32,000 nt of DNA from assembly GCA_963662715.1 (NCBI GenBank), contig OY759724.1:2850001-2882000 (forward strand), given 5' to 3'. Shown piece by piece: positions 4,450 through 25,279 of this stretch. Numbering within the stretch: position 1 is the first letter of the stretch; the number at the start of each line of letters is the position of its first letter. The translations under genes were made by a program, and so were the position numbers. This stretch comes from Candidatus Omnitrophota bacterium. Lineage in GTDB: Bacteria > Omnitrophota > Gorgyraeia > Zapsychrales > JANLHA01. Under the pieces are notes generated by a model. That model was not told the origin of the DNA. It saw only the letters and a program-made list of their open reading frames with translations, and made no database searches.

Positions 4450-4477
4450 TTGACAATCTTTCGGCAAACCTTAATAT
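4450..4477 (+). promoter_or_regulatory. Candidate sigma70-type promoter (TTGACA-16 nt-TAATAT)
   Basis: Consensus -35 TTGACA at 4450-4455, 16-nt spacer, TAATAT at 4472-4477. Best -35/-10 pair in the leader region. Confidence 0.4.
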
Positions 4478-6790: not shown

Positions 6791-8179
6791 ATGGGAGCTG
6801 CGATATCCCCCAAGACAATAAGAACAACCCGGAGTGTCTGCCCCAAATGCCTTCAGACGATTGATGCCTTTATTGTGGAAAAGGATAACAAGGTTTTCAT
6901 GCAGAAGACCTGTCAGCTGCACGGGTTTTTTGAGATATTGCTCTCAGAGACAGCCCCGTATTATTCTGAACTGGAACAGTATTATTTTGACCTGGCGGAC
7001 GAGCGCAACGAGGTGCCGGAATATGAGATCTGGCCGACCTATAAATGCAACATTGATTGCTCTATTTGCTGTTTCGGGAAACAAAATCATGAGATGGAGG
7101 ACCAGGACGCTTCTCTCTCCCAAATCGAACAGTTCATCAAAAACAGTTCCAAACGCTTTTTTATCCTTTCCGGGGGAGATCCGACCTGCCGGGATGACCT
7201 CGATCAGATCATAAAATTATTCCGGAAATACGGTAAAACGGTCACGATCAACACCAACGGCCTGAAATGCGCGAGCATAAACTATCTTAAAAAACTTAAA
7301 GAGGCTGGCCTGGACCGCCTTAACCTGCAGTTTGACGGTTTTGACCGCAAGGCCTATATTGCGCTGCGGCGTCAGGACTATCTGGATGTGAAGTTGAAGG
7401 TTATTGAAAATTTGAAAACCCTCAATATCCAGACGACGTTCAACGCAACCATAGCCAAGAATCTTAATGAGAACGCCGTTAAAGATTTAATAGATTTCGC
7501 CGCAAAGCATCCGTTTATCAACGGGGTAAACTTTTTTACGATTTGCTACCTGGGCGGCGCCAGGGACTGGGGCCCGGATAACTATATTATGCCTGATGAA
7601 ATTGTCGACTTGCTGCAGCAACAGACGGATCATAAGGTCAGCAAAGAAAATGTCTTTATATTTCAGAAACTTCATCTGGCCATAAAATCCTTTTTATCCC
7701 AGAAATGGTGTTTTTACAATCAGGTTTATCTTTTTGTCCGTGACCGGGGTTCTTATCAGCCGATCGACCGGTATTTGAACCTGGCCAAAGCCGGCCCCTG
7801 GCTGGATAAGTACCGGGACGCTTTTATCAGGAAAAAGTTCTTGTCCCGTTTTTATCTTGGCATGGCGGTTGTGTGTCTGTTCCTGAAGAAAGAATCTTTG
7901 GTCATTTTTAAGGAAATCCTTTTAAGGGGGCTGTCTTATTTCTTGAAAACCCAGCATTATCTGAAAGGCAGCCGTTTCTTTTCCGTCAGTTTTTCGACCG
8001 GGTGCGATCCGTATAAATTTGATCATGATATTGTCAAACATTGTCAAAATGAGATTATCGCGGCTCAGGATGCGACAGGGATCCTGACGGAACTGGGGAG
8101 CGACGGAATTTACTGCATGAATTTAGAGAGAAGACATTTAAACAAAACCTTAAACCAGGAAAGGACGGCGTCCCCTTAA
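6791..8179 (+). CDS. Radical SAM protein with N-terminal CxxC...CxxH metal knuckle (COG1964 / Tes-GDGT-MAS-like architecture), paralog A
   Basis: 462 aa. C17-P-K-C20-x20-C41-Q-L-H44. CX3CX2C at C86/C90/C93 (YKCNIDCSIC). LQFDGF and ENLKTLNIQTTFNATIAK. C-terminal conserved Cys (WCF..., CDPYKFDHDIVKHC). GGAG SD 5 nt upstream. Confidence 0.8.
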   Translation: MGAAISPKTIRTTRSVCPKCLQTIDAFIVEKDNKVFMQKTCQLHGFFEILLSETAPYYSELEQYYFDLADERNEVPEYEIWPTYKCNIDCSICCFGKQNHEMEDQDASLSQIEQFIKNSSKRFFILSGGDPTCRDDLDQIIKLFRKYGKTVTINTNGLKCASINYLKKLKEAGLDRLNLQFDGFDRKAYIALRRQDYLDVKLKVIENLKTLNIQTTFNATIAKNLNENAVKDLIDFAAKHPFINGVNFFTICYLGGARDWGPDNYIMPDEIVDLLQQQTDHKVSKENVFIFQKLHLAIKSFLSQKWCFYNQVYLFVRDRGSYQPIDRYLNLAKAGPWLDKYRDAFIRKKFLSRFYLGMAVVCLFLKKESLVIFKEILLRGLSYFLKTQHYLKGSRFFSVSFSTGCDPYKFDHDIVKHCQNEIIAAQDATGILTELGSDGIYCMNLERRHLNKTLNQERTASP

Positions 8180-8180
8180 T

Positions 8181-9446
8181 ATGCTCAAGGCCTACCCCCG
8201 ACATTCCGTGGATATTACAAAGCATGATTATAAACGGATGCTTGCTTTTTTGTTCGCCCCCCGGTCCGTCAAAGCCGGATATCTGAAGCGGTTCGAGCAA
8301 TCATTCGCCGGATATATCGGGACGCGGTTCGCTTTGTCCATGCCTTCCGCCAGGCTCGGTCTTTATGTCGTGTTGAAATATTTTAATTTCCCCGAGGGGA
8401 CGGAAGTTATTATCACGCCTTTCACCCATCAGAGTATCTTCACGGTTCTCAAAACATTCCGGCTGAAGCCTGTTTTTGTTGACATAGACCCCAAGACCCA
8501 TAACACCAATCCTTCTTTGGTCAAACAGTGTATCTCAGAAAAAACGCGCCTTATGGTTTTGACCCACATGTGGGGGCAGGCCTGTGATATGGACGCTTTT
8601 ATGACGCTGAAAGAGGAATACGGCCTGAAAATCATTGAAGACTGCGCCATGGCGGCCGGGGCCGTTTATAAAGGCAAAAAAGTAGGCAGTTACGGAGATG
8701 CCAGCATATTTAGTTTCGGGAAGGCGAAAGCCATTTGTGCTTTCGGAGGAGGAATGTTGTGCCTGAATGACGAGAAGATGCATGAGTTTGTCGCTTCGGT
8801 CATTAAGGATTTTCAGCCGCCCCGGCCGTTTTCTCTGGTCTTTTCCGTGATCAATTCCGTGGTCGCCAATGTCCTCACCCGTCCGCGATGTTTTTTCCTG
8901 TCGCTTTATCCGGTTATGCGGCTTTTTAATCTCAGAGACCCCTACAATCCGGTTGAGCATAAAAAGGATTCCGAAGTCATTCTGGAGCAGATGCCGGAAG
9001 AATGGAAAGTCCGGTTATCGTCTTTTCAGGCGGCCATAGGCCTTGAACAGCTTAAGACTTTGGAAGAACGCAATGACCGCAGAACCCAAAATGCCCGGAT
9101 TTTGAACTATGCCTTGAAGGACGTCCCGGATATTGGTCTGCCGGAGACGTCAGAACGCGGGCAGCATATTTATCTCTACTATGCGGTTCACATAAAGAAG
9201 AAAACCGATCTGGACAATCTCCGGAAGAAACTGTTGGCGCGGGCCGTGGATACCCAGCTGAATGAATTGACGAATCCCGAGCAGTTAAGCATTTTTGGCG
9301 CGGACAGCGGGTCTTTTCCGGTCTTTGACAAGATCTCTCCCAACATTCTTGTTATTCCCAACGGAATAATGCTGAATGAGCAGGATATCCATGCGGTGGC
9401 ACAGGCGGTCAGGGAATGCCTTGGGCCCGGCGGGGGTGAGATGTAA
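8181..9446 (+). CDS. DegT/DnrJ/EryC1/StrS-family PLP-dependent aminotransferase (paralog 2, long form with internal insertion)
   Basis: 421 aa. YLKRFEQSFAGYIG. IIEDCAMAAGAVYKGKKVGSYGDASIFSFGKAKAICAFGGGML with Lys in FGKAK. RLSSFQAAIGLEQLKTL. Between the Lys region and the QAAxGxxQL helix there is a segment ~50 aa longer than in paralog 1, partly hydrophobic. Confidence 0.8.
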   Translation: MLKAYPRHSVDITKHDYKRMLAFLFAPRSVKAGYLKRFEQSFAGYIGTRFALSMPSARLGLYVVLKYFNFPEGTEVIITPFTHQSIFTVLKTFRLKPVFVDIDPKTHNTNPSLVKQCISEKTRLMVLTHMWGQACDMDAFMTLKEEYGLKIIEDCAMAAGAVYKGKKVGSYGDASIFSFGKAKAICAFGGGMLCLNDEKMHEFVASVIKDFQPPRPFSLVFSVINSVVANVLTRPRCFFLSLYPVMRLFNLRDPYNPVEHKKDSEVILEQMPEEWKVRLSSFQAAIGLEQLKTLEERNDRRTQNARILNYALKDVPDIGLPETSERGQHIYLYYAVHIKKKTDLDNLRKKLLARAVDTQLNELTNPEQLSIFGADSGSFPVFDKISPNILVIPNGIMLNEQDIHAVAQAVRECLGPGGGEM

Positions 9447-9449
9447 GAT

Positions 9450-10763
9450 ATGATAAAGGATGATAAGTTCAGTCACATCGTCAGGGCGACTGAAAGCGTG
9501 TGTCCGGTTTGTCTGGACTCCGTTCAGGCATTGGTGCAAATCCGGGGGGAGTCTGTTTATCTTGAAAAGACATGTCCCCGGCACGGAGATTTCCGCGTCC
9601 TCTTATCGAAACACGCCAAAGATTATAAGGAGTTGTCGGATTGCTATTTCTATTTTATCCCGCAGGCTTTGGTGCAGAAAGAATATTACCTCTGCGCAAC
9701 CATGCAGTGCAATATCTCCTGCCCGATTTGTTTTCTGGATTACTGTCAGGACAGGCAGGACCTCTCTTTTGAACGTCTGGCAGACAACCTCCGCGATAAA
9801 ACAGACGTGGAAAGATTTACTTTTTCCCATGGCGAACCGACCGTCAGTCCGCAATTACCCGATATGATCCGGGCTTTGAAACGGGCGAATAAACTGGTTA
9901 ACATTCATACCAACGGCGTCAGACTGGCGGATTATGATTATGCGCTTTCCTTGAGGAACGCCGGGCTCGACCATGTCAGCCTGCAGTTCGATGGTTTCCG
10001 GGACGAGATTTATCAGGCTCTCCGGGGGGCGCGGTTATTGGATGTTAAATTAAAAGCTCTGGAGAACCTCAAACGTTTATCCTTGCCGGTCACTTTAAAT
10101 GTCACGGTGGCCAAGGAGGTGAACGATGATGAATGCGGCCGGATCTTCGATTATGTCGTTAAAAATGATTTCATGAAAGACCTGAGTTATATCACTTATT
10201 GCCATTATTCTCCTGACGATAAGGATATGGAACGTTATATGATGCCCGATGATCTTTTGGTTATTCTGGAAAAACACACCCAAGGCCGGCTGCAAAGAGA
10301 AAATATCATCCATTTTCAGAAACTATATTATGCTTATCTCAGTGCGTCGCATAAGAGAAAATGCTTCAATTATTATCATTATTTTATCGTCCGGACAAAG
10401 ACAGGCTATCGCGGAATCGACCAGTACCTGGATTTAAAAAAGATCGCGCGGGCCATAGACCGCTGCAAAGATCAAAAGAAGAAGATGACGCGCTGGAGGC
10501 TTTATAAAATATTGCTGACATCCTTGAAAAAATCCAGCCTGTTTTTGATCCCTTATGGGGTGTCCCTGGTGTTGAGAGGGGGATATCCCAAAAAACCGGG
10601 ACGGTTCCTGGTGGTGACCTTTGCCAGTATCTGTGACCCTTATAAGTATGATGCCACGGTCGCTTTGAATTGCGGGCAGGGGATTGTGACGCAGAAAAAT
10701 GAACAGGAAAGTTACGGTTCATATATTATCGAAGAAATGAAAACTTTAAGAGTCCAGTCATGA
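9450..10763 (+). CDS. Radical SAM protein with N-terminal CxxC...CxxH metal knuckle (COG1964 / Tes-GDGT-MAS-like architecture), paralog B
   Basis: 437 aa. C18-P-V-C21-x20-C42-P-R-H45. MQCNISCPIC. VSLQFDGF and ENLKRLSLPVTLNVTVAK. KCFNYYH and CDPYKYDATVALNC. Confidence 0.8.
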   Translation: MIKDDKFSHIVRATESVCPVCLDSVQALVQIRGESVYLEKTCPRHGDFRVLLSKHAKDYKELSDCYFYFIPQALVQKEYYLCATMQCNISCPICFLDYCQDRQDLSFERLADNLRDKTDVERFTFSHGEPTVSPQLPDMIRALKRANKLVNIHTNGVRLADYDYALSLRNAGLDHVSLQFDGFRDEIYQALRGARLLDVKLKALENLKRLSLPVTLNVTVAKEVNDDECGRIFDYVVKNDFMKDLSYITYCHYSPDDKDMERYMMPDDLLVILEKHTQGRLQRENIIHFQKLYYAYLSASHKRKCFNYYHYFIVRTKTGYRGIDQYLDLKKIARAIDRCKDQKKKMTRWRLYKILLTSLKKSSLFLIPYGVSLVLRGGYPKKPGRFLVVTFASICDPYKYDATVALNCGQGIVTQKNEQESYGSYIIEEMKTLRVQS

Positions 10764-12337
10764 AAATTGCCTTTGTCAATGATTCCTGCGAACGGTTAGG
10801 CGTGGAGTACATTTCGGCCGTCCTTAAACAACACGGCCACACCGTTAAGCTCTTCGCCGATCCCCAGCTGTTTAATGACGAAAATTTCACCATCGCTCCT
10901 TTCGCAAGGTTTTTTGACTATACGGAAGAACTTGTCGCGGATATCAAGGCGTTTCAGCCGGATTTAATCGCATTTTCCGTCGTGACCGACTTTTATCAAT
11001 GGGCCTGCCGCCTGGCCAGGCGGATTAAGTCTGAGATGGATGTCCCGGTCCTTTTCGGCGGTATTCATGCCACTTCCGTACCTGAAAAAGTCCTGCAGCA
11101 GGATTGTGTCGATATGGTCTGCCGGGGGGAGGGGGAATACGCTCTTTTGGATCTTGTCACGAGTATGGAGCGGGGGGCGATAGATTATGCCACCCGGAAT
11201 ATTTGGTTTAAAAAAGACGGCCGGGTTATTAGGAATGAAGTCCGCCCGTTGATAGAGAACCTGGATGAGCTTCCTTTTGCGGACAAAGATCTTTTTTACG
11301 AAGCCAGCGCCCATTTTTCCCGGTGTTATTTCTTAATGACCAACCGCGGGTGCGCCTATGCCTGTAGTTATTGCTGCAATTCGTTCCTTAAAAAATTTTA
11401 TCAGGACAAGGGGAAATATCTGCGGTTCCGCAGCGTCTCTAACGTTATCCGGGAACTGGTATGGGCCAAGGAAAAGTACGGTATCCGCATGATCCGTATC
11501 CACGACGATGATTTCCTGACCCATGACGTCAAGTGGTTCGAAGAATTTTCCGGGCAGTATGCCGGGCGGATCAAAGCCCCGTTCGCCTGTTTTACTCATC
11601 CCAACAGCGTGACGGAACGCAAGGCCGCTCTTCTTAAGAAAGCGGGCTGTCATGATATCGAAGTGGGGGTCCAGTCCATCTCCGCCAAAACACGTTACGA
11701 GGTCTTAAACCGCCGTGTTTCCGATGAGCAGTTAAGCAAAGCCATCCGCATCTTAAAAGACGCCGGGATCAAAGTTATCACGGATAATATCCTGGGGCTC
11801 CCGCACCAAAGTGATCAGGAACTGCTGGATCTTATGAGATTTTATAATAAAAACCGGATCATGAAGATTTACTGTTTTGGGTTCCGGCACTACCCGGCCA
11901 CGGATATCGTGGAGTATTCCCGAAAAGCCTCTTTGCTGACCCGGGAGGATGTTGAGAACCTGGAAAACGGCGTGAATGTCAAAACATTCATCCAGAGCGG
12001 GGATATCTTAAGCCGGGAAGCCAAACAGCTGCAGACTTTCTTTGCGTTTCTGCTTTATCTTCCGGAATCCTTTAACAATTTTATACTGAACAGAAAATTG
12101 TACCGTTTTTTCATTCCGTTACCGTATTATATTCTTGTTATTTTCTCCAACTGGCTGAGGATCCCGTATCGTTACAACTGGGCGTTGCACATTACGGTTT
12201 GCCGTTACGGCACATATATTTTCAGGCGTTTCAAGAGCAAGCTGCGGTTTCCCGGGATGTTTGCCCGGGGAAAAAGAACTGATTTTATTCTTAAACATCC
12301 CGTAGGGCAGGAATGCGGTTCAGGAGAGAGGGCTTGA
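10760..12337 (+). CDS. B12-binding-domain radical SAM protein (class B-like), tandem paralog 1
   Basis: 525 aa. Rossmann-like N-domain MKIAFVNDSCERLGVEYISAVLKQHGH...PDLIAFSVVTDFYQWA...FGGIHATSVPEKVL...VCRGEGEYALLDL. Radical SAM motif NRGCAYACSYCC. C-terminal hydrophobic/basic extension. ATGA overlap with the upstream gene. Confidence 0.85.
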   Translation: MKIAFVNDSCERLGVEYISAVLKQHGHTVKLFADPQLFNDENFTIAPFARFFDYTEELVADIKAFQPDLIAFSVVTDFYQWACRLARRIKSEMDVPVLFGGIHATSVPEKVLQQDCVDMVCRGEGEYALLDLVTSMERGAIDYATRNIWFKKDGRVIRNEVRPLIENLDELPFADKDLFYEASAHFSRCYFLMTNRGCAYACSYCCNSFLKKFYQDKGKYLRFRSVSNVIRELVWAKEKYGIRMIRIHDDDFLTHDVKWFEEFSGQYAGRIKAPFACFTHPNSVTERKAALLKKAGCHDIEVGVQSISAKTRYEVLNRRVSDEQLSKAIRILKDAGIKVITDNILGLPHQSDQELLDLMRFYNKNRIMKIYCFGFRHYPATDIVEYSRKASLLTREDVENLENGVNVKTFIQSGDILSREAKQLQTFFAFLLYLPESFNNFILNRKLYRFFIPLPYYILVIFSNWLRIPYRYNWALHITVCRYGTYIFRRFKSKLRFPGMFARGKRTDFILKHPVGQECGSGERA

Positions 12338-13671: not shown

Positions 13672-13673
13672 AC

Positions 13674-15182
13674 ATGATGAAGAAAAAAGGTTTGAAAATT
13701 GCTTTTGTCAATGATTCCTGCGAGCATTTAGGGGTTGAGTATATATCAGCCGTCTTGAAGGCCGCAGGCCATCAGACGCAACTGTTTGTCGACCCCTTGT
13801 TATTTGATGATGAATTTATTACGGTCAAAGCCCTAAGCAAGTGTTTTGATTATAAAACGAAAATTATCAAGGAATTAAAAAGTTACGGGCCTGACCTTAT
13901 CACCATGTCGGTTGTCTCCAGTTTTTATCCCTGGGCTTCCGGTATGGCGCGTTTAATCAAACAGGAGATTCCTGTTCCCGTCATTATGGGCGGCGCTCAT
14001 CCCACGGCTGTCCCGGAGAGGGTCATTCAGAATGAGTTTGTTGATATGGTCTGTGTCGGAGAAGGGGAGTATTCTATGCTGGAGCTGGCCAACAGCATGG
14101 CGGCGGGCAAGGTCGATACCACTATTAAGAATATCTGGTTTAAACAAGACGGACGGATCATACGCAATGAGCTGCGGCCCCTTATCGATAACCTGGATGA
14201 GCTTCCCATGCCGGATAAGGAGCTTTACTATTCCGCCAGCCCGCATTTTTCCCAAAGCTATTATATTACCGCCAGCCGGGGGTGTCCTTATGCCTGCAGT
14301 TATTGCTGCAACTCTTACCTGCGGTCCCTGTATAAAGGGCTGGGGCCTTATCGTCGTCAGCGCAGCCCAGGTCATGTGATCGGGGAATTGGTCGAGGCGA
14401 AAAAACGCTTTGCCATTGATCCGGTTTTCTTCCTGGATGACTGCTTTGCCTACGATCTTCAGTGGCTTAAAGAGTTTGCCCCGGCCTACCGGAAGCAGGT
14501 CGGCATAAGATTTTATTGTATGATGTTCCCTGACGATAAAATGGAGGAAGCCTTAAAATATCTGAAATTAGCCGGATGCGGAGAGATTGAAATCGGGGTG
14601 CAGTCCTGGGATGAAGATGTCCGGCGGAATATTTTTCACCGCCGTGTTTCAAACGAGACGATGATCCGGACGATGAAGCTTATTAAAAAAGAGAATATCA
14701 ATCTGGTGACCGGAGATATTCTGGGCTACCCGGGACAAAGAGAAGAGCATATCCTGAAGGCCGCGCATATTTATACGGAGATAAAACCCAGCCGGACCTA
14801 TTCTTTTATCCTGAAATATTTCCCCAAAACACAGATCACGGAAGAGGCGGTTAAAAAGGGCCAGCTAAAAGGTGAGGATGTGGAAAAGATCCTGGACGGG
14901 CATTACGGGAAATATCTGTCGAAAGACGGGAGCATGACGGAAAAAGAGGTGATGCAGTATCTGTTCCTTTTCCTGCTTGTGCGCATCCTGCCCGTCCGGA
15001 TGGCGCGGGCTGTTATCCGTAAACGTCTCTACCGGAAATTTCCGGTGGTTCTTACGCCGGCCGCCATCTCCATTTTGAACAATTTTTCGACATCCACTTT
15101 TGAATCTAAAATTAACCGGCGAAGCGCATGGCACCGGTATATTTATTTTTTAAAGAAGATGTTCTTTAAAGGCAAACGATGA
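13674..15182 (+). CDS. B12-binding-domain radical SAM protein, tandem paralog 2
   Basis: 502 aa. LKIAFVNDSCEHLGVEYISAVLKAAGH, MGGAHPTAVPERVI, VCVGEGEYSMLEL, SRGCPYACSYCC. C-terminal VIRKRLYRKFPVVLTPAAISIL extension. Confidence 0.85.
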   Translation: MMKKKGLKIAFVNDSCEHLGVEYISAVLKAAGHQTQLFVDPLLFDDEFITVKALSKCFDYKTKIIKELKSYGPDLITMSVVSSFYPWASGMARLIKQEIPVPVIMGGAHPTAVPERVIQNEFVDMVCVGEGEYSMLELANSMAAGKVDTTIKNIWFKQDGRIIRNELRPLIDNLDELPMPDKELYYSASPHFSQSYYITASRGCPYACSYCCNSYLRSLYKGLGPYRRQRSPGHVIGELVEAKKRFAIDPVFFLDDCFAYDLQWLKEFAPAYRKQVGIRFYCMMFPDDKMEEALKYLKLAGCGEIEIGVQSWDEDVRRNIFHRRVSNETMIRTMKLIKKENINLVTGDILGYPGQREEHILKAAHIYTEIKPSRTYSFILKYFPKTQITEEAVKKGQLKGEDVEKILDGHYGKYLSKDGSMTEKEVMQYLFLFLLVRILPVRMARAVIRKRLYRKFPVVLTPAAISILNNFSTSTFESKINRRSAWHRYIYFLKKMFFKGKR

Positions 15183-16675
15183 AAATCGCATTTATCAATG
15201 ATTCCGCTCAGCAGCTGGGCATTCAGTACATGTCCGCTGTGCTGAAACAGCACGGCCATGATGTGAGGCTGTTTATGGACCCCCAGCTGTTTGCTGACGA
15301 TGTTATACAGATCAAAAGGCTCAACCGCCTGCTTGACATGAGAAAAGACATCGTCCGGCGGGTCAAGGACTATGCTCCGGATCTGGTCGGCATATCCGTT
15401 GTCACTGATTTTTATCAATGGGCCAGCCAGATAGCCCGGATGATCAAGGATGAAATGGATGTCCCTATCATTGCCGGAGGCATCCATCCGACCTCGGTTC
15501 CGGAACGGGTCCTGCAGGATGAATGCTTTGACATGGTGTGCCTGGGGGAGGGGGAATTTCCGCTTTTGGAATTAGCCGACAGCATGCAAAGAGGAAAAAT
15601 GGACACCTCCATCCCGAATATCTGGTTTAAAGAAAACGGCCGGATCATTAAAAATGAACTCCGGCCGCTTCTTGAAGACCTTGACGCTTTGCCGCTGCCG
15701 GACACGGACTTGTATTATTCCGTCAGCCCTCATTTTAGAAGGACCGGGTTGTATATTACGATGACGTCCCGCGGCTGTCCGAATGCCTGCAGTTACTGCT
15801 GTTTCTCCTATCTGCAGGACCTGTATAAAGGCAAGGGCAAACGGATCAGGCAGCGCAGCGTTCAAAATGTGATTGAAGAGTTGAGAATCAATAAGGCAAA
15901 ATATAAAATAAAGTTTATCGCGTTTATGGATAACTGTTTCGGGTATGATGTGAAATGGCTCAGGGAATTCACCCCGGTTTACCGTTCGGAAATCGGCATA
16001 AAGTTCTGGTGCATCATGCACCCCAAAGACGTTACAGAAGAAACCCTCCGGCACCTCAAACAGGCCGGATGCCATACCATTGACATGGGCGTGCAGTCCT
16101 GGAACGAGGATATACGAAAAGAAGTCCTTCACCGGGATGTCGATAACGATACGATGGCCCGGGCTATTCAGATCGTTAAGGATGCCGGGATCGAAATTAT
16201 GACCGACAGCATTTTTGACCTGCCCGGGCAGACAGAAGAGGATGTCCTGGAAAGCGCCCGGAGATACGTTGAGATCAGGCCGAAGCGGATATATTTTTAC
16301 ATGTTACGGCATTATCCGAACACCCTCATAACCCGGTTGGCCAAACAAGATCAGCGGCTTGCGCCGGCCAGGTATGAAGAAGTGATGAGCGGGGTGAATG
16401 TCACGTCCTTTACGGTCGGCGGAGACCAGGTCAACCAGAGAATGATTCAGTTCCAAATCCTGTTTTATTTGATTGATCTGATCCCCAAAAGCATAAGCCG
16501 GTATATCATTCGCAAAAGACTTTATCGGTATTTCCCTGTGGCTTTGGGGCCGGCTATTATTGTCATCCTGCGCAATCTTTTGGCTTTTGATATGAATGCG
16601 CGGCTTCAACGCGCCTGGGCTTTTAATCGCTACGCCTATTTTATCTGGCAGAAATTAAAACCTTTAAAGAAATAA
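15179..16675 (+). CDS. B12-binding-domain radical SAM protein, tandem paralog 3
   Basis: 498 aa. MKIAFINDSAQQLGIQYMSAVLKQHGH, AGGIHPTSVPERVL, VCLGEGEFPLLEL, SRGCPNACSYCC. IIRKRLYRYFPVALGPAIIVIL tail. ATGA overlap with paralog 2. Confidence 0.85.
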   Translation: MKIAFINDSAQQLGIQYMSAVLKQHGHDVRLFMDPQLFADDVIQIKRLNRLLDMRKDIVRRVKDYAPDLVGISVVTDFYQWASQIARMIKDEMDVPIIAGGIHPTSVPERVLQDECFDMVCLGEGEFPLLELADSMQRGKMDTSIPNIWFKENGRIIKNELRPLLEDLDALPLPDTDLYYSVSPHFRRTGLYITMTSRGCPNACSYCCFSYLQDLYKGKGKRIRQRSVQNVIEELRINKAKYKIKFIAFMDNCFGYDVKWLREFTPVYRSEIGIKFWCIMHPKDVTEETLRHLKQAGCHTIDMGVQSWNEDIRKEVLHRDVDNDTMARAIQIVKDAGIEIMTDSIFDLPGQTEEDVLESARRYVEIRPKRIYFYMLRHYPNTLITRLAKQDQRLAPARYEEVMSGVNVTSFTVGGDQVNQRMIQFQILFYLIDLIPKSISRYIIRKRLYRYFPVALGPAIIVILRNLLAFDMNARLQRAWAFNRYAYFIWQKLKPLKK

Positions 16676-16690
16676 GCGGACTGGCAAATC

Positions 16691-18220
16691 ATGAAAATCG
16701 CTTTTGTCAATGATTGTATTGAACGGCTCGGCGTCGAATATATTTCCGCTCTTCTGAAGAACGCGGGACACGACGTTAAGCTTTTCGTCGATCCGCAGCT
16801 GTTTGATGATGTCCATATTCATCACAAGGCGTTAAACCGATATTTCGACCACAAGCAAAAGATCATCGCGGACCTGCTGGAATACCGGCCGGACCTGATC
16901 GCTTTCTCCGTGGACACAGAATCCTATGCCTGGGCCAGCGGCATGGCCCGGGCCGTTAAATCCCGCATGGAGGCGCCTGTTATATTTGGCGGGATCCACC
17001 CTTCATCCGTTCCTGACCATGTCATCAGGAACGACGCCGTCGATATCCTGTGCGTCGGCGAGGGGGAATACCCCATGCTGGAACTTGCGGAAAGCATGGC
17101 CAGAGGGGAAATGGACACACATATTAGCAATTTGTGGTTTAAACAGCAGGGAAAGATTGTCAGAAATCCTCTGCGCCCGTTGCTCAAGGACCTCGATGTT
17201 CTGCCTTACGCCGATCATGATCTTTTCTACAGTCACAGCCCGTATTTTCAGCAAGGGTACGGCACCATAGTCTCCCGGGGGTGCCCTTACACTTGCAGTT
17301 ACTGCTGTCATTCCTATTTGCGCAAGCTCTATCAGGCAAACGGGACATATCTCCGTCTGCGCAGCGTGAGTAATGTGATTGAAGAATTGAAAGATCATGT
17401 GGCGAAATATGATGTCGGGACGATCACTTTTTTTGATGATAATTTCGGCTATAATTTCAAATGGCTGGAAGAATTTTCCCGTGAATATGCCCGGGCCATT
17501 AAGAAAAGGTTTAAAGTGACGACTCATCCGGAGATTGTGTCCCGCGAATATATCCGTCTGCTGAAAGACGCGGGCTGCTGTTCGGTGGATCTGGGCATCC
17601 AGTCCTGGGATCGGCAGGTGAGACGCTATTGGTTCCAGAGAGATGTTGAAACAGGCGTGATGCGGCGGGCGATGGAGCTTATCAAAGAAGCACGCCTGGA
17701 ATTGATCTGCGATAATATTTTTAACGTCCCTGCGCAGGATGATGAACAGTATATTCAGACGCTGTTGCCGTATACGGATATTAAACCGCATCGGATCATA
17801 TTTAACCAGTTGAAATATTATCCCGGCGTGGCCATCACCGAAAAGGCCAAAAGGGAGGGGTTCATCGGCGAGGAAAGATACCGCATGATATTGGACGGGG
17901 CGGATCAAAAGGGGGTTTATTTGGACGAAGTCGTGCTGAAAGAGCGGGAACGGAAGAGTTTTGTTAAAATGAAAGTTTTTTTGTATCTCATGGATTGTTT
18001 CCCCAAGAAATTTTCCCGCTATGTCATCATGAAAAAGATTTACCGTTATTTCCCCGGTATTTTTAACCCGGCGTTTTTTCTGATGTTCCGGACCCTTTTT
18101 TCCTCTGATTCCGACACGCAATATTTAAAACAAAGAACCTTGGCGAGATACCGTTATCATATCGGCAGACGGCTAAGGTTGAAATTATTTTCAAGGAGAC
18201 ATAATGAACAGTCAAAGTGA
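16691..18220 (+). CDS. B12-binding-domain radical SAM protein, tandem paralog 4
   Basis: 509 aa. MKIAFVNDCIERLGVEYISALLKNAGH, FGGIHPSSVPDHVI, LCVGEGEYPMLEL, SRGCPYTCSYCC. VIMKKIYRYFPGIFNPAFFLMF tail. Confidence 0.85.
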   Translation: MKIAFVNDCIERLGVEYISALLKNAGHDVKLFVDPQLFDDVHIHHKALNRYFDHKQKIIADLLEYRPDLIAFSVDTESYAWASGMARAVKSRMEAPVIFGGIHPSSVPDHVIRNDAVDILCVGEGEYPMLELAESMARGEMDTHISNLWFKQQGKIVRNPLRPLLKDLDVLPYADHDLFYSHSPYFQQGYGTIVSRGCPYTCSYCCHSYLRKLYQANGTYLRLRSVSNVIEELKDHVAKYDVGTITFFDDNFGYNFKWLEEFSREYARAIKKRFKVTTHPEIVSREYIRLLKDAGCCSVDLGIQSWDRQVRRYWFQRDVETGVMRRAMELIKEARLELICDNIFNVPAQDDEQYIQTLLPYTDIKPHRIIFNQLKYYPGVAITEKAKREGFIGEERYRMILDGADQKGVYLDEVVLKERERKSFVKMKVFLYLMDCFPKKFSRYVIMKKIYRYFPGIFNPAFFLMFRTLFSSDSDTQYLKQRTLARYRYHIGRRLRLKLFSRRHNEQSK

Positions 18221-19544
18221 CAGAATGATCCGGGAAACGCAAAGTCTATGCCCGGTGTGCGGCCGTAAAATCCAGGCGGCTATTGTCGAGTCGGAAGGCC
18301 GTGTTTATTTGAAAAAAAACTGCGGCGAGCACGGCATGTTCCGGATCAGGGTTTCCAGGCACGCCTGGTACTACAAGGCGCTGACGGACTATTATTTCAG
18401 GGTTATGCCGGAGACTATGCCTCAAAAACGTTTTTATATTTATTTCAGCAACCGCTGCAATCTGCATTGCCCGATCTGTCTGCTGGAGCCCAACCAGGAT
18501 AAAATGGCGGATATCGATCTGGAACGTTTTAAAAAGGTTATCAGGGAAAACCCGAAGTTCCGTTATTACATTTACGGCGCGGAGCCGACATTGCGTCAGG
18601 ATCTGCCGGAGTGGATCCGGCTGCTGAAAGATTACGGGAATATGGTCAATATTCACAGTAACGGCATTAAGCTGGATGATTTTGAATATTTGCAGGAACT
18701 GCAGGCATGCGGGCTGGATTATCTGAGCCTGCAGTTTGACGGTTTTGACGATGATATTTATCTCCGGTTGAGAAACCAGAAGCTGCTGGACAGGAAAATG
18801 AAAGTCCTGGAAAATCTGGAAAAGCTGAATATCCCTACCGGGCTGAATGTCACAATCGCCAAAAACGTCAACGAAGCCCAGGTGAAGCCCATTATTGATT
18901 ATGCCGTTAAAAGGCCGTTTATCCGGGATGTGAGTTTCGCCTCGGTGTCCTTCCTGGGGGATGCGGAAAAGAATTTTTCTGCCGAAGATCTGCTCATGCC
19001 GGACGACTTGGTCGACATGGCCGAGGAGCAAACTCAGGGGGAGATTTCCCGGCGCAGTATGTATCTGTTTCAAAAGTTATATTATGCCGTTTTATCTGTT
19101 TTTAACATCCGGCGCTGTTATAATTTTCACCATATGGCCCTGGTGCGTGACCGGCAAGGTTACCAGACATTTGATGCCCTGTTTGATTTGGCGGATTTTG
19201 AAAAGGTCCTGGACAGATATTCTCAATGGGCGGGGAAAAGCAAAACCAAAGCCTCGTTATATTTCTGGGGGCAGCTTGTGCTGAATATGTTGACCAAAAA
19301 GCCCTTTGAAAAATTAAAGACTCTGCCGCTCAACATGCTTCTGCCGGGGAATATCCGAAGCCCCAAGATCCCGTCGAAAATCTTGCTGGTCAGCTTCGGA
19401 ACGGTTTGCGACAAGTATAAATATGATTCCGGTATTTCCAAATACTGCGGACAGGGTTTTGTATTCAATCAAAATGAGGATATCGTTTTGTCCGATTCGA
19501 TATCCGATGTGACGCTTTTACGTGAGGACCGGCAGTGTTTGTAG
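18204..19544 (+). CDS. Radical SAM protein with N-terminal CxxC...CxxH metal knuckle (COG1964 / Tes-GDGT-MAS-like architecture), paralog C
   Basis: 446 aa. C16-P-V-C19-x20-C40-G-E-H43. NRCNLHCPIC. LSLQFDGF and ENLEKLNIPTGLNVTIAK. RCYNFHH and CDKYKYDSGISKYC. AAGGAG SD at 18193-18198. 17-nt overlap with the upstream gene. Confidence 0.8.
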   Translation: MNSQSDRMIRETQSLCPVCGRKIQAAIVESEGRVYLKKNCGEHGMFRIRVSRHAWYYKALTDYYFRVMPETMPQKRFYIYFSNRCNLHCPICLLEPNQDKMADIDLERFKKVIRENPKFRYYIYGAEPTLRQDLPEWIRLLKDYGNMVNIHSNGIKLDDFEYLQELQACGLDYLSLQFDGFDDDIYLRLRNQKLLDRKMKVLENLEKLNIPTGLNVTIAKNVNEAQVKPIIDYAVKRPFIRDVSFASVSFLGDAEKNFSAEDLLMPDDLVDMAEEQTQGEISRRSMYLFQKLYYAVLSVFNIRRCYNFHHMALVRDRQGYQTFDALFDLADFEKVLDRYSQWAGKSKTKASLYFWGQLVLNMLTKKPFEKLKTLPLNMLLPGNIRSPKIPSKILLVSFGTVCDKYKYDSGISKYCGQGFVFNQNEDIVLSDSISDVTLLREDRQCL

Positions 19545-24584: not shown

Positions 24585-25279
24585 GAATCAGCATTATGCA
24601 ACCCGGGTATTTACCCTGGCTGGGTTTCTTTGACCTGATGGCCCGCTGTGAACTGTTTGTGATACTCGATGACGTCCGGTTTGCCCCAAGGGACTGGCGT
24701 AGCCGTAACCGGATCCGCACCAAAGACGGATGGGTCTGGTTGACGGTCCCGGTTTTATCCAAAGGCCGGGCCGGGCAAAACATTCTAGACGCTCAAATCA
24801 ATAATGATATCAACTGGCGTCATACTCATTTGAACTGTTTGAGAATTCATTATGCGAAGGCCCCGTATTTTAAGGATTACATCCGATTGTTCGAGGATGT
24901 TTACACCCGACAGTGGAACAGCCTGCTGGAGCTGGATATGGCCCTGATTTCCTCCCTGTCCCGGCAAATGAAGATTGAGACCCCTGTCATGCACTCGTCA
25001 TCTTTATCTCTTACGGATGTCTCCGGCAATGAACGTATCATTAAAATCTGTCAAGAACTGGACGCCCAAGAGCTTTACGACAGTCAGGGCGCTAAGCCGT
25101 TTATCCAAATGCCTCTATTTGAGGAAGCGAATATCCGGGTGGTTTTTCAGGATTACCGGCATCCGGAATATCAACAAGTTTATGAACCGTTTTTACCGTA
25201 TATGTCTGTCGTTGATTTATTGTTTAACGAAGGGCCGCGGAGCAAGGATGTTCTGCTGCGTGATGGCCCTTCCGGTTAA
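24581..25279 (+). CDS. WbqC-family protein
   Basis: Track ORF starts at 24536, but ATG 24581 (ATGA overlap with the GT2 stop; GGAGGGGAG SD upstream) gives MRISIMQPGYLPWLGFFDLMARCELFVILDDVRFAPRDWRSRNRIRTKDGWVWLTVPV. This is the characteristic WbqC-like N-terminus. Confidence 0.75.
   Translation: MRISIMQPGYLPWLGFFDLMARCELFVILDDVRFAPRDWRSRNRIRTKDGWVWLTVPVLSKGRAGQNILDAQINNDINWRHTHLNCLRIHYAKAPYFKDYIRLFEDVYTRQWNSLLELDMALISSLSRQMKIETPVMHSSSLSLTDVSGNERIIKICQELDAQELYDSQGAKPFIQMPLFEEANIRVVFQDYRHPEYQQVYEPFLPYMSVVDLLFNEGPRSKDVLLRDGPSG

What the first reader, a model, noticed from the sequence alone, without database searches (positions are those of the whole stretch)
6791..19544. Three paralogous rSAM proteins with rubredoxin-like CxxC-x20-CxxH knuckle: candidate bacterial Tes/GDGT-MAS-like C-C coupling enzymes
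The 462-, 437- and 446-aa proteins share five features. (i) C-P-x-C-x20-C-x2-H at identical spacing (C17/C20/C41/H44; C18/C21/C42/H45; C16/C19/C40/H43). (ii) CNxxCxIC about 45 residues later. (iii) LQFDGF and ENL..L....LN(A/V)T(I/V)AK core strands. (iv) A hydrophobic/basic segment in the last quarter (FYLGMAVVCLFLKK; LFLIPYGVSLVLRGG; LYFWGQLVLNML). (v) Three conserved C-terminal Cys, one in WCF/KCF/RCY and then C-x12-C, which could ligate an auxiliary cluster. From memory this is the COG1964 layout. That family includes the archaeal tetraether lipid synthase (Tes / GDGT-MAS), which has a rubredoxin-like iron site plus several 4Fe-4S clusters and joins two lipid tails by sp3-sp3 C-C coupling. 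Three copies in one bacterial operon interleaved with B12-rSAMs would resemble the archaeal lipid-tail tailoring toolkit; as far as I recall the archaeal ring synthases GrsA/B also carry B12 domains. Enzymes for bacterial membrane-spanning and branched tetraether lipids are only partly assigned.
Basis: partly seen in the sequence, partly recalled or inferred. Interest (0 to 1): 0.85.

Follow-up and report, generated by a model that had tools for sequence, protein, structure and literature searches.

The report
Tes-like radical SAM trio, Omnitrophota operon
Three related iron-sulfur "radical SAM" enzymes in an uncultured Omnitrophota bacterium are distant, uncharacterised cousins of the archaeal enzyme that welds membrane lipid tails together, but they sit in a conserved operon for an amino-sugar-bearing cell-envelope molecule, so they probably do similar chemistry on a different, still unknown substrate.

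Summary

They belong to the Tes/GDGT-MAS superfamily. All carry PF23545 plus PF04055. A family profile hits PDB 7TOL at E 3e-75 over almost the full length, and the AlphaFold model matches 7TOL at TM 0.77.

They are not Tes orthologs:
- They score 124-161 bits on the NCBIfam Tes model (cut-off 450; GDGT-MAS scores 693).
- They lack the N-terminal auxiliary [4Fe-4S] motif, Met439 and Tyr459.
- They fall in a separate clade (100/100 bootstraps) that has one CX3CX2C motif and three invariant C-terminal Cys.

The surrounding 17-gene operon is syntenic in many Omnitrophota contigs. It holds two DegT aminotransferases, a BtrN-like SPASM rSAM, three Tes-like rSAMs, five B12-rSAMs, a MiaB-like enzyme, a flippase-like protein, an ArnC-like GT2, WbqC and a YfhO-like GT-C.

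Best reading (confidence about 0.45): these are cluster-assisted radical C-C or C-X bond-forming enzymes acting on a membrane-anchored glycolipid or lipid-linked amino sugar. A role as tetraether or membrane-spanning lipid synthases is possible but the less likely reading. It is a new variant of a known kind.

The parts
4450..4477 (+). Promoter-like site (TTGACA-16-TAATAT) in the only sizeable intergenic gap upstream of the operon
   Evidence: Consensus scan, 10 of 12 matches. Weak evidence only. No riboswitch or other Rfam family is found in the window.
4763..5830 (+). DegT/DnrJ/EryC1-type PLP sugar aminotransferase 1
   Evidence: PF01041 E 8e-83. Best NCBIfam matches are PseC, LegC and ArnB, all below cut-off. 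It precedes the SPASM rSAM and a Tes-like gene in related Omnitrophota loci.
5814..6788 (+). Radical SAM/SPASM protein, BtrN-like
   Evidence: PF04055 plus PF13186. The best solved-structure match is BtrN at E 8e-10, then DesII. It overlaps the DegT stop by 17 nt.
6791..8179 (+). Tes-like rSAM paralog 1 (TesL-1, 462 aa)
   Evidence: PF23545 plus PF04055. 7TOL is the top PDB hit. AlphaFold pLDDT 96, Foldseek 7TOL TMq 0.77. Orthologs at 41-76% identity, where named Omnitrophota.
8181..9446 (+). DegT-type aminotransferase 2 (421 aa, split match to the Pfam model)
   Evidence: PF01041 E 6e-70 in two stretches. 35% identical to DegT1 over 166 aa.
9450..10763 (+). Tes-like rSAM paralog 2 (TesL-2, 437 aa)
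   Evidence: PF23545 plus PF04055. It falls in its own Omnitrophota subclade. Its stop overlaps the next gene by 4 nt.
10760..12337 (+). B12-binding radical SAM a
   Evidence: PF02310 plus PF04055. Best NCBIfam matches are HpnJ and BchE, far below cut-off. Hydrophobic C-terminal segment.
12313..13671 (+). MiaB/RimO-family methylthiotransferase-like rSAM (not the housekeeping MtaB)
   Evidence: UPF0004 plus Radical_SAM. TIGR00089 scores 224 bits against a 251 cut-off. Only 23% identical to the MtaB at 550-1851. Conserved in the close Omnitrophota clusters.
13674..15182 (+). B12-binding radical SAM b
   Evidence: PF02310 plus PF04055. Shares 45-49% identity with the other four B12 paralogs. The C-terminal segment at 430-448 has a KD hydropathy of 1.93.
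15179..16675 (+). B12-binding radical SAM c
   Evidence: PF02310 plus PF04055. Best PDB match by sequence is AprD4 at 2e-15.
16691..18220 (+). B12-binding radical SAM d
   Evidence: PF02310 plus PF04055.
18204..19544 (+). Tes-like rSAM paralog 3 (TesL-3, 446 aa)
   Evidence: PF23545 plus PF04055. Orthologs at 68-70% identity sit in syntenic metagenome contigs.
19578..21098 (+). B12-binding radical SAM e
   Evidence: PF02310 plus PF04055. The ortholog is 74% identical in L081, L082 and L085.
21137..22747 (+). Polytopic membrane protein with a C-terminal soluble domain, no family assignment
   Evidence: About 6 hydrophobic segments in residues 1-230. No significant Pfam or NCBIfam hit. Syntenic homologs at 45% identity.
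22797..23837 (+). LPG_synthase_TM (flippase-like) membrane protein
   Evidence: PF03706 E 9e-21. Syntenic at 49-50% identity.
23856..24584 (+). Family 2 glycosyltransferase, ArnC / polyprenyl-phosphate sugar synthase-like
   Evidence: PF00535. Best NCBIfam match is the undecaprenyl-phosphate 4-deoxy-4-formamido-L-arabinose transferase at 67 bits, below cut-off. Syntenic at 63-66% identity, and present at 46-47% even in distant Tes-like clusters L086 and L088.
24536..25279 (+). WbqC-family protein (function unknown, found in polysaccharide loci)
   Evidence: PF08889 E 5e-74. It follows the GT2 in L081, L082, L085, L086 and L088 at 56-66% identity.
25310..27145 (+). YfhO-like GT-C type membrane glycosyltransferase
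   Evidence: PF09586 C-terminal match at 4e-10 and a weak GT-C_AftD match. Many hydrophobic segments. Syntenic at 56-61% identity. PMT_2 GT-C genes are present in more distant clusters.
27157..28650 (-). PaaK/F390-synthetase-like adenylating enzyme, convergent to the operon; membership in the system uncertain
   Evidence: NCBIfam PaaK-type models score 119-137 bits, below cut-offs. No Pfam hit at E<0.01.
28632..30131 (-). Sixth, divergent B12-rSAM-like protein (no Pfam B12 hit); membership uncertain
   Evidence: PF04055 at 29.4 bits. 25-27% identical to the five B12-rSAMs. Best NCBIfam match TIGR04072 at 57 bits.

Best explanation
The three proteins belong to a previously undescribed branch of the Tes/GDGT-MAS radical SAM superfamily. 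I call it the 'QFDGF clade'. It is commonest in Omnitrophota but also occurs in MAGs labelled Acidobacteriota, Myxococcota, Lentisphaerota, Verrucomicrobiota and Undinarchaeota.

Shown: each protein keeps the surface Cys3His mononuclear-iron domain, the SAM-cleaving CX3CX2C cluster, and a C-terminal domain with exactly three invariant Cys. That pattern fits a [4Fe-4S] cluster with one open site. Each has lost the N-terminal auxiliary cluster of GDGT-MAS.

Inferred mechanism: 5'-deoxyadenosyl radical abstracts H from an unactivated carbon. The substrate radical is parked on, or oxidised by, the open-site C-terminal cluster, as in GDGT-MAS. A second activation then forms a C-C bond (a cross-link or ring), or possibly a C-S bond. 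The helices at residues 331-391, which are hydrophobic and very basic, would act as a membrane-interface lid.

Inferred pathway: the enzymes work with the five B12-rSAMs (C-methylation or cyclisation) and the MiaB-like enzyme (methylthiolation) on a membrane-anchored intermediate. The BtrN-like rSAM and the two DegT enzymes install amino groups by alcohol to ketone to amine steps. The ArnC-like GT2, the flippase-like protein and the YfhO-like GT-C load, flip and transfer the sugar part. The product would be a heavily tailored envelope glycolipid or lipid-linked glycoconjugate, whose structure is unknown.

Three to five paralogs per cluster imply different sites or different reactions, or hetero-oligomers.
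For: Homology and fold:
- 7TOL is the top hit by sequence (E 9e-44 for one protein, 3e-75 for the family profile, aligned over profile positions 7-420).
- 7TOL is also top by structure (TMq 0.77 over 495 columns, model pLDDT 96).

Cofactor sites:
- The CCCH, RS CCC and C307/C405/C418 positions are conserved in about 100 homologs (His is Asp in two).
- C418 aligns to GDGT-MAS C455, and C307 lies one column from C338.
- The features that were lost, Met439 and Tyr459, are dispensable for GDGT-MAS activity in vitro (M439A, Y459F and Y459L stay active; PMC9433317).

Coupling to B12-rSAMs:
- The two gene types are adjacent in nearly all 78 loci.
- P0218 is a single-chain B12-rSAM::Tes-like fusion.

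Conserved operon:
- DegT-SPASM-TesL-DegT-TesL...B12-MTT-B12 recurs in L001-L014.
- T3-B12-B12-B12-TMprotein-flippase-GT2-WbqC-YfhO is syntenic in L081, L082 and L085. GT2-WbqC persists even in distant clusters L086 and L088.
- GT2, PMT_2, Wzx and DegT appear around more distant members.
- Genes are tightly packed, with overlaps or gaps of at most 49 nt.

Membrane association:
- The B12-rSAMs have hydrophobic C-terminal segments, and TesL-1 residues 354-372 reach KD 1.59.
- The helical insert is as hydrophobic as in archaeal Tes but much more basic (18-28% K+R).

Amination module: the SPASM rSAM's best solved relative is BtrN, the rSAM dehydrogenase that works with a DegT-family aminotransferase (the BtrN/BtrS pairing is from my knowledge of butirosin biosynthesis).
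Against: - There is no biochemical or lipidomic evidence of any kind. The substrate is inferred from context only.
- I could not inspect the model's cavity (no coordinates), so a hydrophobic tunnel is not shown.
- A three-Cys open-site cluster also fits substrate ligation, as in MoaA, which is the next-closest structural relative. Polar sugar chemistry is therefore not excluded.
- C405 does not align with GDGT-MAS C438 (it sits 4 residues later), so the geometry of the C-terminal cluster may differ.
- The operon holds no 4,6-dehydratase or nucleotidyltransferase, and no acyl- or prenyl-lipid biosynthesis gene, so neither the sugar nor the lipid precursor is identified.
- One distant relative (L079) sits with PEMT, a CrtI-like oxidase and GDSL lipases, and no glycosylation genes were called in that locus. 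The clade may therefore not share one substrate.
Confidence: 0.45

Rival explanations
1. They are true membrane-spanning lipid synthases, the functional analogues of Tes or Mss. They would couple two acyl or alkyl tails tail-to-tail to give diabolic-acid or brGDGT-like lipids. The B12-rSAMs would add methyl branches or rings, and the sugar genes would only supply a head group.
For: - Full-length GDGT-MAS fold, with the rubredoxin-like site and a C-terminal cluster retained.
- Co-occurrence with B12-rSAMs mirrors the archaeal Tes/Grs/Gmm toolkit (PMC13459092).
- Amphipathic, hydrophobic helices are kept.
- A distant member sits next to PEMT and a CrtI-like gene.
- GDGT-MAS binds ester phospholipids non-specifically (PMC9433317).
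Against: - The proteins are below the Tes equivalog cut-off by about 300 bits and form a separate clade.
- BLASTP against MJ0619 gives only E 1e-30 to 1e-42, below the published 1e-50 homolog criterion (PMC8941075).
- Archaeal tetraether formation needs only one Tes, yet these clusters hold 3-5 paralogs.
- The strictly conserved partners (DegT x2, BtrN-like rSAM, MTTase, GT2-WbqC, GT-C) have no role in known membrane-spanning lipid pathways.
- No ether-lipid or fatty-acid genes are in the operon.
- No bacterial Tes homolog has been validated. Omnitrophota were reported for Mss homologs and are not among the phyla named for Tes homologs (10.1101/2024.06.25.600576).
Confidence: 0.15
2. They tailor a soluble amino sugar, aminocyclitol or nucleotide sugar, in chemistry like that of aminoglycoside pathways. 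The open-site C-terminal cluster would bind a hydroxyl or amino group of the substrate, as in MoaA. The enzymes would act as dehydrogenases, epimerases or carbocycle/C-C extension enzymes feeding the DegT aminotransferases. Lipid would enter only at the GT2 step.
For: - DegT-SPASM-TesL and TesL-DegT gene pairs are tightly coupled and conserved.
- No 4,6-dehydratase is present, so the ketone used by DegT must come from a radical enzyme.
- The SPASM rSAM is closest to BtrN and DesII, and a B12-rSAM is closest to AprD4 among solved structures.
- MoaA is the second-best structural relative of TesL-1.
- The B12-rSAMs' best NCBIfam model is HpnJ, a hopanoid-biosynthesis rSAM.
Against: - Similarity to GDGT-MAS covers the whole chain, including the helical region that forms its lipid pockets (TMq 0.77 against 0.39 for MoaA).
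- That region stays hydrophobic and basic in all three paralogs.
- The B12-rSAMs carry hydrophobic C-terminal tails.
- The BtrN and AprD4 hits are weak, cover only the rSAM core, and reflect what happens to be in the PDB.
- The cluster looks vertically conserved across many Omnitrophota lineages, more like an envelope trait than a sporadic secondary metabolite.
Confidence: 0.25
3. They are peptide or protein maturases, acting on a RiPP or on the upstream type IV pilin-like protein.
For: - SPASM and B12-rSAM enzymes are common RiPP maturases. NCBIfam gives weak hits to RiPP rSAM models.
- A pilin-like gene with an S/T-rich C-terminus lies just upstream, at 3977-4366.
Against: - There is no room for a precursor gene. 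Gaps from 4763 to 27145 are at most 49 nt.
- The pilin gene is separated by a 397-nt gap containing promoter-like sites, and it is absent from all related loci.
- DegT, GT2, WbqC and GT-C partners are not typical of RiPP clusters.
- The nearest characterised homolog acts on lipids.
Confidence: 0.05

Closest known systems
GDGT-MAS / tetraether lipid synthase Tes (M. jannaschii MJ0619, PDB 7TOL/7TOM; NCBIfam NF045702)
   Same: - The domain order is the same: Cys3His mononuclear-iron ribbon with identical C-x2-C-x20-C-x2-H spacing, a partial TIM-barrel rSAM core with CX3CX2C, a helical insert, and a C-terminal Cys-ligated cluster domain.
- The alignment covers almost the full length, and the fold matches at TM 0.77.
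- The Q-F-D-G, GGEPT and TNG core motifs are shared.
- Both are associated with B12-domain rSAMs (the archaeal enzyme with Grs and Gmm; PMC13459092).
   Different: - Only 24-27% identity to archaeal Tes over trimmed columns.
- 124-161 bits on NF045702, against a 450 cut-off and 693 for GDGT-MAS itself.
- The roughly 19-residue insert carrying C73/C77/C80 ([Fe4S4]N) is missing.
- Met439 and Tyr459 are absent.
- The second C-terminal Cys is shifted: F aligns at C438 and a Cys aligns at M442.
- There are 3-5 paralogs per cluster, not one.
- The neighbours are amino-sugar and glycosyl-transfer genes, not GGR/ferredoxin or archaeal lipid genes.
TrsS radical SAM (seleno)protein (NCBIfam NF045646), function uncharacterised
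   Same: It is the best-scoring NCBIfam model for all three proteins (170-180 bits) and belongs to the same superfamily.
   Different: - The scores are far below the 490 cut-off.
- GDGT-MAS itself scores 392 on this model, so TrsS is closer to Tes than to the window proteins.
- No selenocysteine is involved here.
- The papers I found only list TrsS in a table of selenoproteins.
'Bacterial Tes homologs' proposed for brGDGT synthesis (Zeng et al. 2022, PMC8941075)
   Same: They are bacterial members of the same superfamily. MAGs labelled Acidobacteriota (Holophagae, Thermoanaerobaculales) carry members of the same QFDGF clade, next to B12-rSAMs.
   Different: - The published set was defined by BLASTP E<1e-50 to MA_1486, with best bacterial hits at 40-42% identity. 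The window proteins reach only E 1e-30 to 1e-42 and 29-35% against MJ0619.
- None of these bacterial homologs has been functionally tested (10.1101/2024.06.25.600576).
Mss, bacterial membrane-spanning lipid synthase (Thermotoga/Thermoanaerobacter; PMC13159169)
   Same: It is an rSAM enzyme that joins two lipid tails. It is said to share the catalytic architecture of Tes (PMC13274423). Mss homologs have been reported in some Omnitrophota MAGs (10.1101/2024.06.25.600576).
   Different: It is described as only remotely related to Tes, and its host genomes lack Tes homologs (PMC13159169). I had no Mss sequence, so I made no direct comparison.
MoaA (GTP 3',8-cyclase)
   Same: It is the next-closest solved relative (E 4e-22 with the profile, TMq 0.39). 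It also has a C-terminal three-Cys cluster with an open site that binds substrate (the mechanism is from established knowledge).
   Different: It has no Cys3His domain and no helical insert. All MoaA models score below cut-off.
Arn pathway (ArnB/ArnC/ArnE-F/ArnT) and BtrN/BtrS amination logic
   Same: - The non-TesL part of the operon has the same parts list: a DegT-family aminotransferase, a GT2 that loads polyprenyl phosphate, a flippase-like protein and a GT-C transferase.
- The rSAM dehydrogenase plus DegT aminotransferase pairing resembles BtrN/BtrS.
   Different: - All matches are below equivalog cut-offs.
- There is no ArnA-like dehydrogenase/formyltransferase and no ArnD.
- Ten radical SAM genes are inserted, which no known Arn-type pathway has.

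Membership tests
Tes / GDGT-MAS (NF045702) | N-terminal mononuclear iron site C-x2-C-x20-C-x2-H | tested here: met
   C17/C20/C41/H44 and the equivalents in the other two align to C9/C12/C33/H36 of GDGT-MAS. PF23545 E about 1e-17.
Tes / GDGT-MAS (NF045702) | Radical SAM CX3CX2C cluster and SAM-binding core | tested here: met
   C86/C90/C93 align to C98/C102/C105. The GGEPT motif is present. PF04055 E 1e-19 to 1e-24.
Tes / GDGT-MAS (NF045702) | N-terminal auxiliary [4Fe-4S] cluster (C73, C77, C80 plus His) | tested here: not met
   The insert carrying CPYDCGLC is absent. There is a single CX3CX2C per protein in all three paralogs and in almost every clade sequence checked (two 918-aa tandem ORFs aside). 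The GDGT-MAS and SAR324-type proteins have two.
Tes / GDGT-MAS (NF045702) | C-terminal auxiliary [4Fe-4S] cluster with three Cys and labile Met439 | tested here: inconclusive
   Three invariant Cys are present (C307, C405, C418). C418 aligns to C455, and C307 is one column from C338. C405 aligns to M442, and the column of C438 holds F. Met439 is replaced by S, A or G. Metal content was not measurable.
Tes / GDGT-MAS (NF045702) | Tyr459, strictly conserved in 1,000 archaeal homologs | tested here: not met
   The three paralogs have no Tyr here: the profile alignment puts Ile at the Tyr459 position and MAFFT leaves a gap, with C-Q-N-E or C-G-Q-G following C418. The paper reports that Y459F and Y459L stay active (PMC9433317).
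Tes / GDGT-MAS (NF045702) | Score at or above the curated equivalog cut-off (450 bits) | tested here: not met
   156, 124 and 161 bits. The positive control, a GDGT-MAS fragment, scores 693 bits.
Tes / GDGT-MAS (NF045702) | Published homolog criterion (BLASTP E<1e-50, identity >20-30% to a confirmed Tes) | tested here: not met
   Against MJ0619 residues 2-460, at an nr-sized database setting, E is 2e-40, 3e-30 and 1e-42 at 29-35% identity. Caveat: the published query was MA_1486, which I did not have.
Tes / GDGT-MAS (NF045702) | Placement inside the clade of confirmed Tes enzymes | tested here: not met
   In an NJ tree of 53 sequences and 441 columns, the split between archaeal Tes (plus SAR324-type) and the QFDGF clade is recovered in 100 of 100 bootstraps. 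This is a distance method only.
Tes / GDGT-MAS (NF045702) | Overall fold including the helical lipid-pocket region | tested here: met
   Foldseek gives 7TOL E 3e-32 and TMq 0.77 over 495 columns. The model has pLDDT 96 and pTM 0.93.
Tes / GDGT-MAS (NF045702) | Long hydrophobic substrate tunnel ending at the 5'-dA carbon | not testable with these tools
   Model coordinates are not exposed. The only proxy is that the helical insert is similarly hydrophobic (mean KD -0.38 to 0.15, against -0.47 to 0.20 in four archaeal Tes) and more basic.
Tes / GDGT-MAS (NF045702) | Catalyses tail-to-tail Csp3-Csp3 coupling of membrane lipids | not testable with these tools
   This needs anaerobic expression or an in vitro assay with lipid analysis.
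TrsS (NF045646) | Score at or above the curated cut-off (490 bits) | tested here: not met
   178, 170 and 180 bits.
PF23545 + PF04055 architecture (COG1964-type 'uncharacterised Fe-S rSAM enzyme') | HMPTM-type zinc ribbon followed by the rSAM core, above the Pfam gathering scores | tested here: met
   PF23545 scores 60.6-62.7 bits (cut-off 27), and PF04055 scores 70.6-85.2 bits (cut-off 29.5), in all three. JGI names for homologs match the COG1964 description.
Mss (bacterial membrane-spanning lipid synthase) | Sequence homology to the confirmed Thermotoga/Thermoanaerobacter Mss (E<=1e-50, >=30% identity) | not tested
The source paper describes Mss as only remotely related to Tes (PMC13159169).
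MoaA | Score at or above the MoaA equivalog cut-offs | tested here: not met
   61-82 bits against cut-offs of 231-325.

The most novel reading that the evidence does not exclude
The operon may be a bacterial, fully anaerobic counterpart of the archaeal Tes/Grs/Gmm lipid-tailoring toolkit, joined to an Arn-like export module. It would build a new class of envelope lipid in Omnitrophota and related anaerobes. The hydrocarbon tails would be cross-linked or cyclised (Tes-like paralogs), C-methylated (B12-rSAMs) and methylthiolated (MiaB-like enzyme). The polar end would carry radical-installed amino groups (BtrN-like rSAM plus DegT). If so, the QFDGF clade is a second, cluster-poorer lineage of lipid C-C coupling enzymes, and a candidate source of orphan branched or bridged environmental lipids.
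Probability: 0.2. Interest if true: 0.9.

Novelty: new variant of a known kind. Interest (0 to 1): 0.62.

Why it matters
Tes/GDGT-MAS is the only structurally and mechanistically characterised enzyme known to join two inert sp3 carbons of lipids. How bacteria make membrane-spanning, branched and bridged lipids, which are used as paleoclimate proxies, is only partly resolved.

This finding defines a distinct clade of that superfamily. Most of the 150 best representatives are near-full-length matches, and 1,046 representative clusters score E<=1e-30 for the superfamily profile as a whole. The clade has a simpler cofactor set: one mononuclear iron plus two predicted clusters.

The clade travels with B12-rSAMs across several bacterial phyla and one DPANN archaeal lineage. 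In Omnitrophota it sits in a large, syntenic operon with 10 radical SAM genes and amino-sugar and glycosyl-transfer genes.

It offers three things:
- concrete, expressible candidates for testing what 'bacterial Tes-like' enzymes do;
- a natural experiment on which GDGT-MAS cofactors are needed for radical coupling;
- a first handle on an envelope trait of a phylum with almost no cultured members.

If the substrate turns out to be a sugar and not a lipid, that would broaden the known chemistry of the Tes fold.

Tried and rejected
- Source contig: exact-sequence look-ups of TesL-1 and of its 100% identical database copy P0001 found nothing on record. The organism was inferred from the names of homologs instead.
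- Riboswitches and other RNAs: no Rfam family reaches its gathering score in the window.
- TrsS function: the papers found only list it in a table of selenoproteins.
- WbqC function: nothing useful in the literature, and no PDB relative.
- Literature search for this type of cluster (B12-rSAM, aminotransferase, glycosyltransferase, Tes): nothing relevant.
- Metagenome scan with the 536-aa membrane protein: no relatives. The repeat scan with TesL-3 succeeded.
- The first bootstrap script timed out. A faster implementation was used.
- RiPP or pilin-maturase reading: rejected. There is no precursor-sized gap, and the pilin gene is not conserved near related clusters.
- Class D methylase / pterin methyltransferase annotation (the HMPTM name on Pfam and some JGI hits): rejected. 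Lloyd et al. could not corroborate that assignment for MJ0619 and showed the enzyme to be GDGT-MAS instead (PMC9433317).
- Pocket-residue comparison: the GDGT-MAS paper text gives no list of tunnel residues and model coordinates are not exposed, so only a crude hydropathy comparison was possible.
- Taxon labels such as 'uncultured Planctomycetales' or 'Rickettsiales' on binchicken TPA MAGs were not trusted for taxonomic claims.

Full report
**What is there.** The window carries one long + strand operon from 4763 to 27145 with 17 tightly packed genes. Neighbouring genes overlap or are separated by at most 49 nt. The three proteins in the finding are at 6791-8179 (TesL-1, 462 aa), 9450-10763 (TesL-2, 437 aa) and 18204-19544 (TesL-3, 446 aa). 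They are 34-40% identical over their full length, with BLASTP E 1e-81 to 1e-110. All three have Pfam PF23545 (the N-terminal zinc ribbon of HMPTM, which is MJ0619/GDGT-MAS) followed by PF04055.

**Origin.** The best database relatives that carry a name are annotated Candidatus Omnitrophota. A 100% identical copy of TesL-1 lies on a 3.36-Mb contig. In GTDB representative genomes the closest loci (62-73% identity) are labelled Omnitrophota, apart from two 'binchicken' MAGs labelled Planctomycetales/Planctomycetia, labels I do not trust.

**Relationship to Tes/GDGT-MAS.**
- A single-sequence search of the PDB puts GDGT-MAS (7TOL/7TOM) first at E 9e-44.
- A profile of 80 family members aligns positions 7-420 to chain residues 22-480 at E 3e-75.
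- An AlphaFold2 model of TesL-1 (mean pLDDT 96, pTM 0.93) matches 7TOL with TMq 0.77 over 495 columns. The next relative, MoaA, reaches 0.39.
- The proteins are therefore full-length homologs with the GDGT-MAS fold. Their Cys3His site has exactly the C-x2-C-x20-C-x2-H spacing reported for the rubredoxin-like iron of GDGT-MAS (PMC9433317).

**Why they are not Tes orthologs.**
- On the NCBIfam Tes equivalog model they score 156, 124 and 161 bits against a cut-off of 450. A GDGT-MAS fragment run as a control scores 693.
- Their best NCBIfam model is the uncharacterised TrsS (170-180 bits, cut-off 490). GDGT-MAS itself scores 392 on TrsS, so Tes and TrsS are closer to each other than either is to the window proteins.
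- BLASTP against MJ0619 gives 29-35% identity and E 1e-30 to 1e-42 at an nr-sized search space. That is below the E<1e-50 criterion used to define Tes homologs (PMC8941075).
- The profile alignment shows that the roughly 19-residue insert carrying C73/C77/C80, the N-terminal auxiliary [4Fe-4S] cluster, is absent.
- Met439 and Tyr459, both completely conserved in archaeal homologs (PMC9433317), are not conserved.
- The three invariant C-terminal cysteines are placed as follows. C418 aligns with GDGT-MAS C455. C307 sits one column from C338. C405 sits four residues after the C438/M439 position.
- Across about 100 homologs from 78 loci the pattern is almost constant: CCCH (the His is Asp in two), a single CX3CX2C (two 918-aa tandem ORFs aside), and three C-terminal Cys. 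Only a few SAR324-type or Pseudomonadota-labelled proteins have the GDGT-MAS pattern with two CX3CX2C motifs.
- An NJ tree (53 sequences, 441 columns) separates archaeal Tes plus those SAR324-type proteins from this 'QFDGF clade' in 100 of 100 bootstraps. The three window paralogs fall in three different Omnitrophota subclades, so the duplications are old.
- An exhaustive profile search finds 1,046 representative clusters at E<=1e-30. Most of the 150 best are near-full-length matches.

**What the lost features imply.** According to Lloyd et al., the M439A, Y459F and Y459L variants of GDGT-MAS remain active, and the N-terminal cluster lies on the protein surface (PMC9433317). The element that paper ties to catalysis is a C-terminal cluster that captures the first substrate radical as an S-C adduct. 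Its apparent counterpart here is a three-Cys, and thus open-site, cluster. 'Works like GDGT-MAS' therefore remains plausible even though 'is a Tes' fails. That is inference. The same three-Cys arrangement serves substrate binding in MoaA.

**Genomic context.**
- The operon order is DegT, SPASM rSAM, TesL-1, DegT, TesL-2, B12-rSAM, MiaB-like rSAM, three B12-rSAMs, TesL-3, B12-rSAM, a polytopic membrane protein, an LPG_synthase_TM flippase-like protein, a GT2 (best match the ArnC-type undecaprenyl-phosphate sugar transferase, below cut-off), WbqC, and a YfhO-like GT-C.
- The 5' half recurs in Omnitrophota contigs L001-L014, with 3-5 Tes-like paralogs per cluster.
- The 3' half (TesL-3, B12-rSAMs, membrane protein, flippase-like, GT2, WbqC, YfhO-like) is syntenic at 45-74% identity in three independent metagenome contigs. 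GT2-WbqC follows the Tes-like and B12 genes even in clusters whose Tes-like proteins are only 33-37% identical.
- More distant members sit with GT2, PMT_2-type GT-C, Wzx, DegT, asparagine synthase, SDR and U32 genes.
- One distant relative instead has PEMT, a CrtI-like oxidase and GDSL lipases as neighbours.
- Adjacency of Tes-like and B12-rSAM genes is near-universal across the bacterial phyla and Undinarchaeota sampled. One database protein fuses the two in a single chain.
- The SPASM rSAM's best solved relative is BtrN, followed by DesII. A B12-rSAM's best solved relative is AprD4. These hits are weak and limited to the core.
- The operon contains no sugar 4,6-dehydratase, no nucleotidyltransferase, and no fatty-acid, ether-lipid or prenyl-lipid gene.

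**Membrane association.** The DegT, SPASM and MiaB-like proteins look soluble. The B12-rSAMs have hydrophobic C-terminal segments (KD up to 1.9), and TesL-1 residues 354-372 reach 1.59. The helical insert corresponds to the region whose amphipathic helices form the second lipid pocket in GDGT-MAS. In the window proteins it is as hydrophobic as in archaeal Tes but much more basic (18-28% K+R against 5-7% D+E). That would suit binding to an anionic bacterial membrane.

**Interpretation.**
- Best reading (confidence about 0.45): the three proteins are cluster-assisted radical enzymes that form C-C, or possibly C-S, bonds on a membrane-anchored intermediate of an envelope glycolipid or lipid-linked glycoconjugate pathway. 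They would act together with the B12-rSAMs and the MiaB-like enzyme. The BtrN-like rSAM and the DegT enzymes would install amino groups, and the GT2, flippase-like protein and GT-C would load, flip and transfer the product.
It is weakened by the failed membership tests, by the multiplicity of paralogs, and by conserved partners that known membrane-spanning lipid pathways do not need.
- A soluble sugar or aminocyclitol role with MoaA-like substrate ligation is a serious rival (about 0.25).
- A RiPP or pilin-maturase role is unlikely (about 0.05). There is no space for a precursor gene, and the upstream pilin-like gene is not conserved near related clusters.

**Literature.** Bacterial Tes homologs are still described as untested. 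Omnitrophota MAGs are reported for Mss and ElbD homologs and are not among the phyla named for Tes homologs (10.1101/2024.06.25.600576; PMC13159169; PMC13459092). I found no description of this operon.

**Limits.**
- All functional statements rest on homology and synteny.
- The tree is distance-based.
- No Mss, MA_1486, Grs or Gmm sequences were available for direct comparison.

Noticed in passing
window 1876-2757 (+): A 293-aa protein. Its N-terminal half is acidic, Pro/Ala/Glu-rich and of low complexity. Its C-terminal half is a CAP12/Pycsar-type TIR domain (Pfam PF10137 1e-10; PADLOC PDC-S35 8e-13). It may be a defence effector. It sits between the housekeeping MtaB and two small secreted or membrane proteins.
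   Followed up: partly
window 3977-4366 (+): A type IV pilin-like protein (N-terminal methylation motif) with a Ser/Thr-rich C-terminus, directly upstream of the rSAM/glycosylation operon. A 397-nt gap with promoter-like sites separates the two. The gene is not conserved next to related clusters.
   Followed up: partly
database protein P0218 (950 aa); L005 14035.. and L021 1487.. (918-aa ORFs): P0218 is a natural single-chain fusion of a B12-binding rSAM with a Tes-like rSAM. L005 and L021 (overlapping stretches of one contig) carry the same 918-aa ORF that looks like two Tes-like units in tandem. This may be a real fusion or a missed stop or frameshift.
   Followed up: partly
database proteins P0258, P0270, P0320, P0315: Hemerythrin-domain fusions to Tes-like rSAMs. 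P0315 additionally continues into a P-type ATPase. This suggests an O2- or iron-sensing subgroup of the clade.
   Followed up: no
window 27157-28650 (-) and 28632-30131 (-): A convergent gene pair at the operon's end. One is a PaaK/F390-synthetase-like adenylating enzyme. The other is a divergent sixth B12-rSAM-like protein, 25-27% identical to the other five and without a Pfam B12 hit. They may belong to the same pathway.
   Followed up: partly
loci L033-L067 (distant Tes-like clusters): Outside the close Omnitrophota clade, Tes-like genes nearly always occur as adjacent pairs. One is about 35% and the other about 26% identical to the window proteins. They often lie next to four B12-rSAMs on the opposite strand. 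This hints at a heteromeric enzyme.
   Followed up: no
window 12313-13671 (+): A second MiaB/RimO-family enzyme, only 23% identical to the genuine MtaB at 550-1851, is strictly conserved inside the cluster. A methylthiotransferase paralog in a non-tRNA, non-ribosomal context is unusual and implies a methylthiolated product.
   Followed up: partly
window 30488-31660 (+): A HEAT-repeat protein with an N-terminal hydrophobic segment (PF13646 2e-34; weak PADLOC HEAT-ARM hit). It has no evident link to the operon.
   Followed up: no
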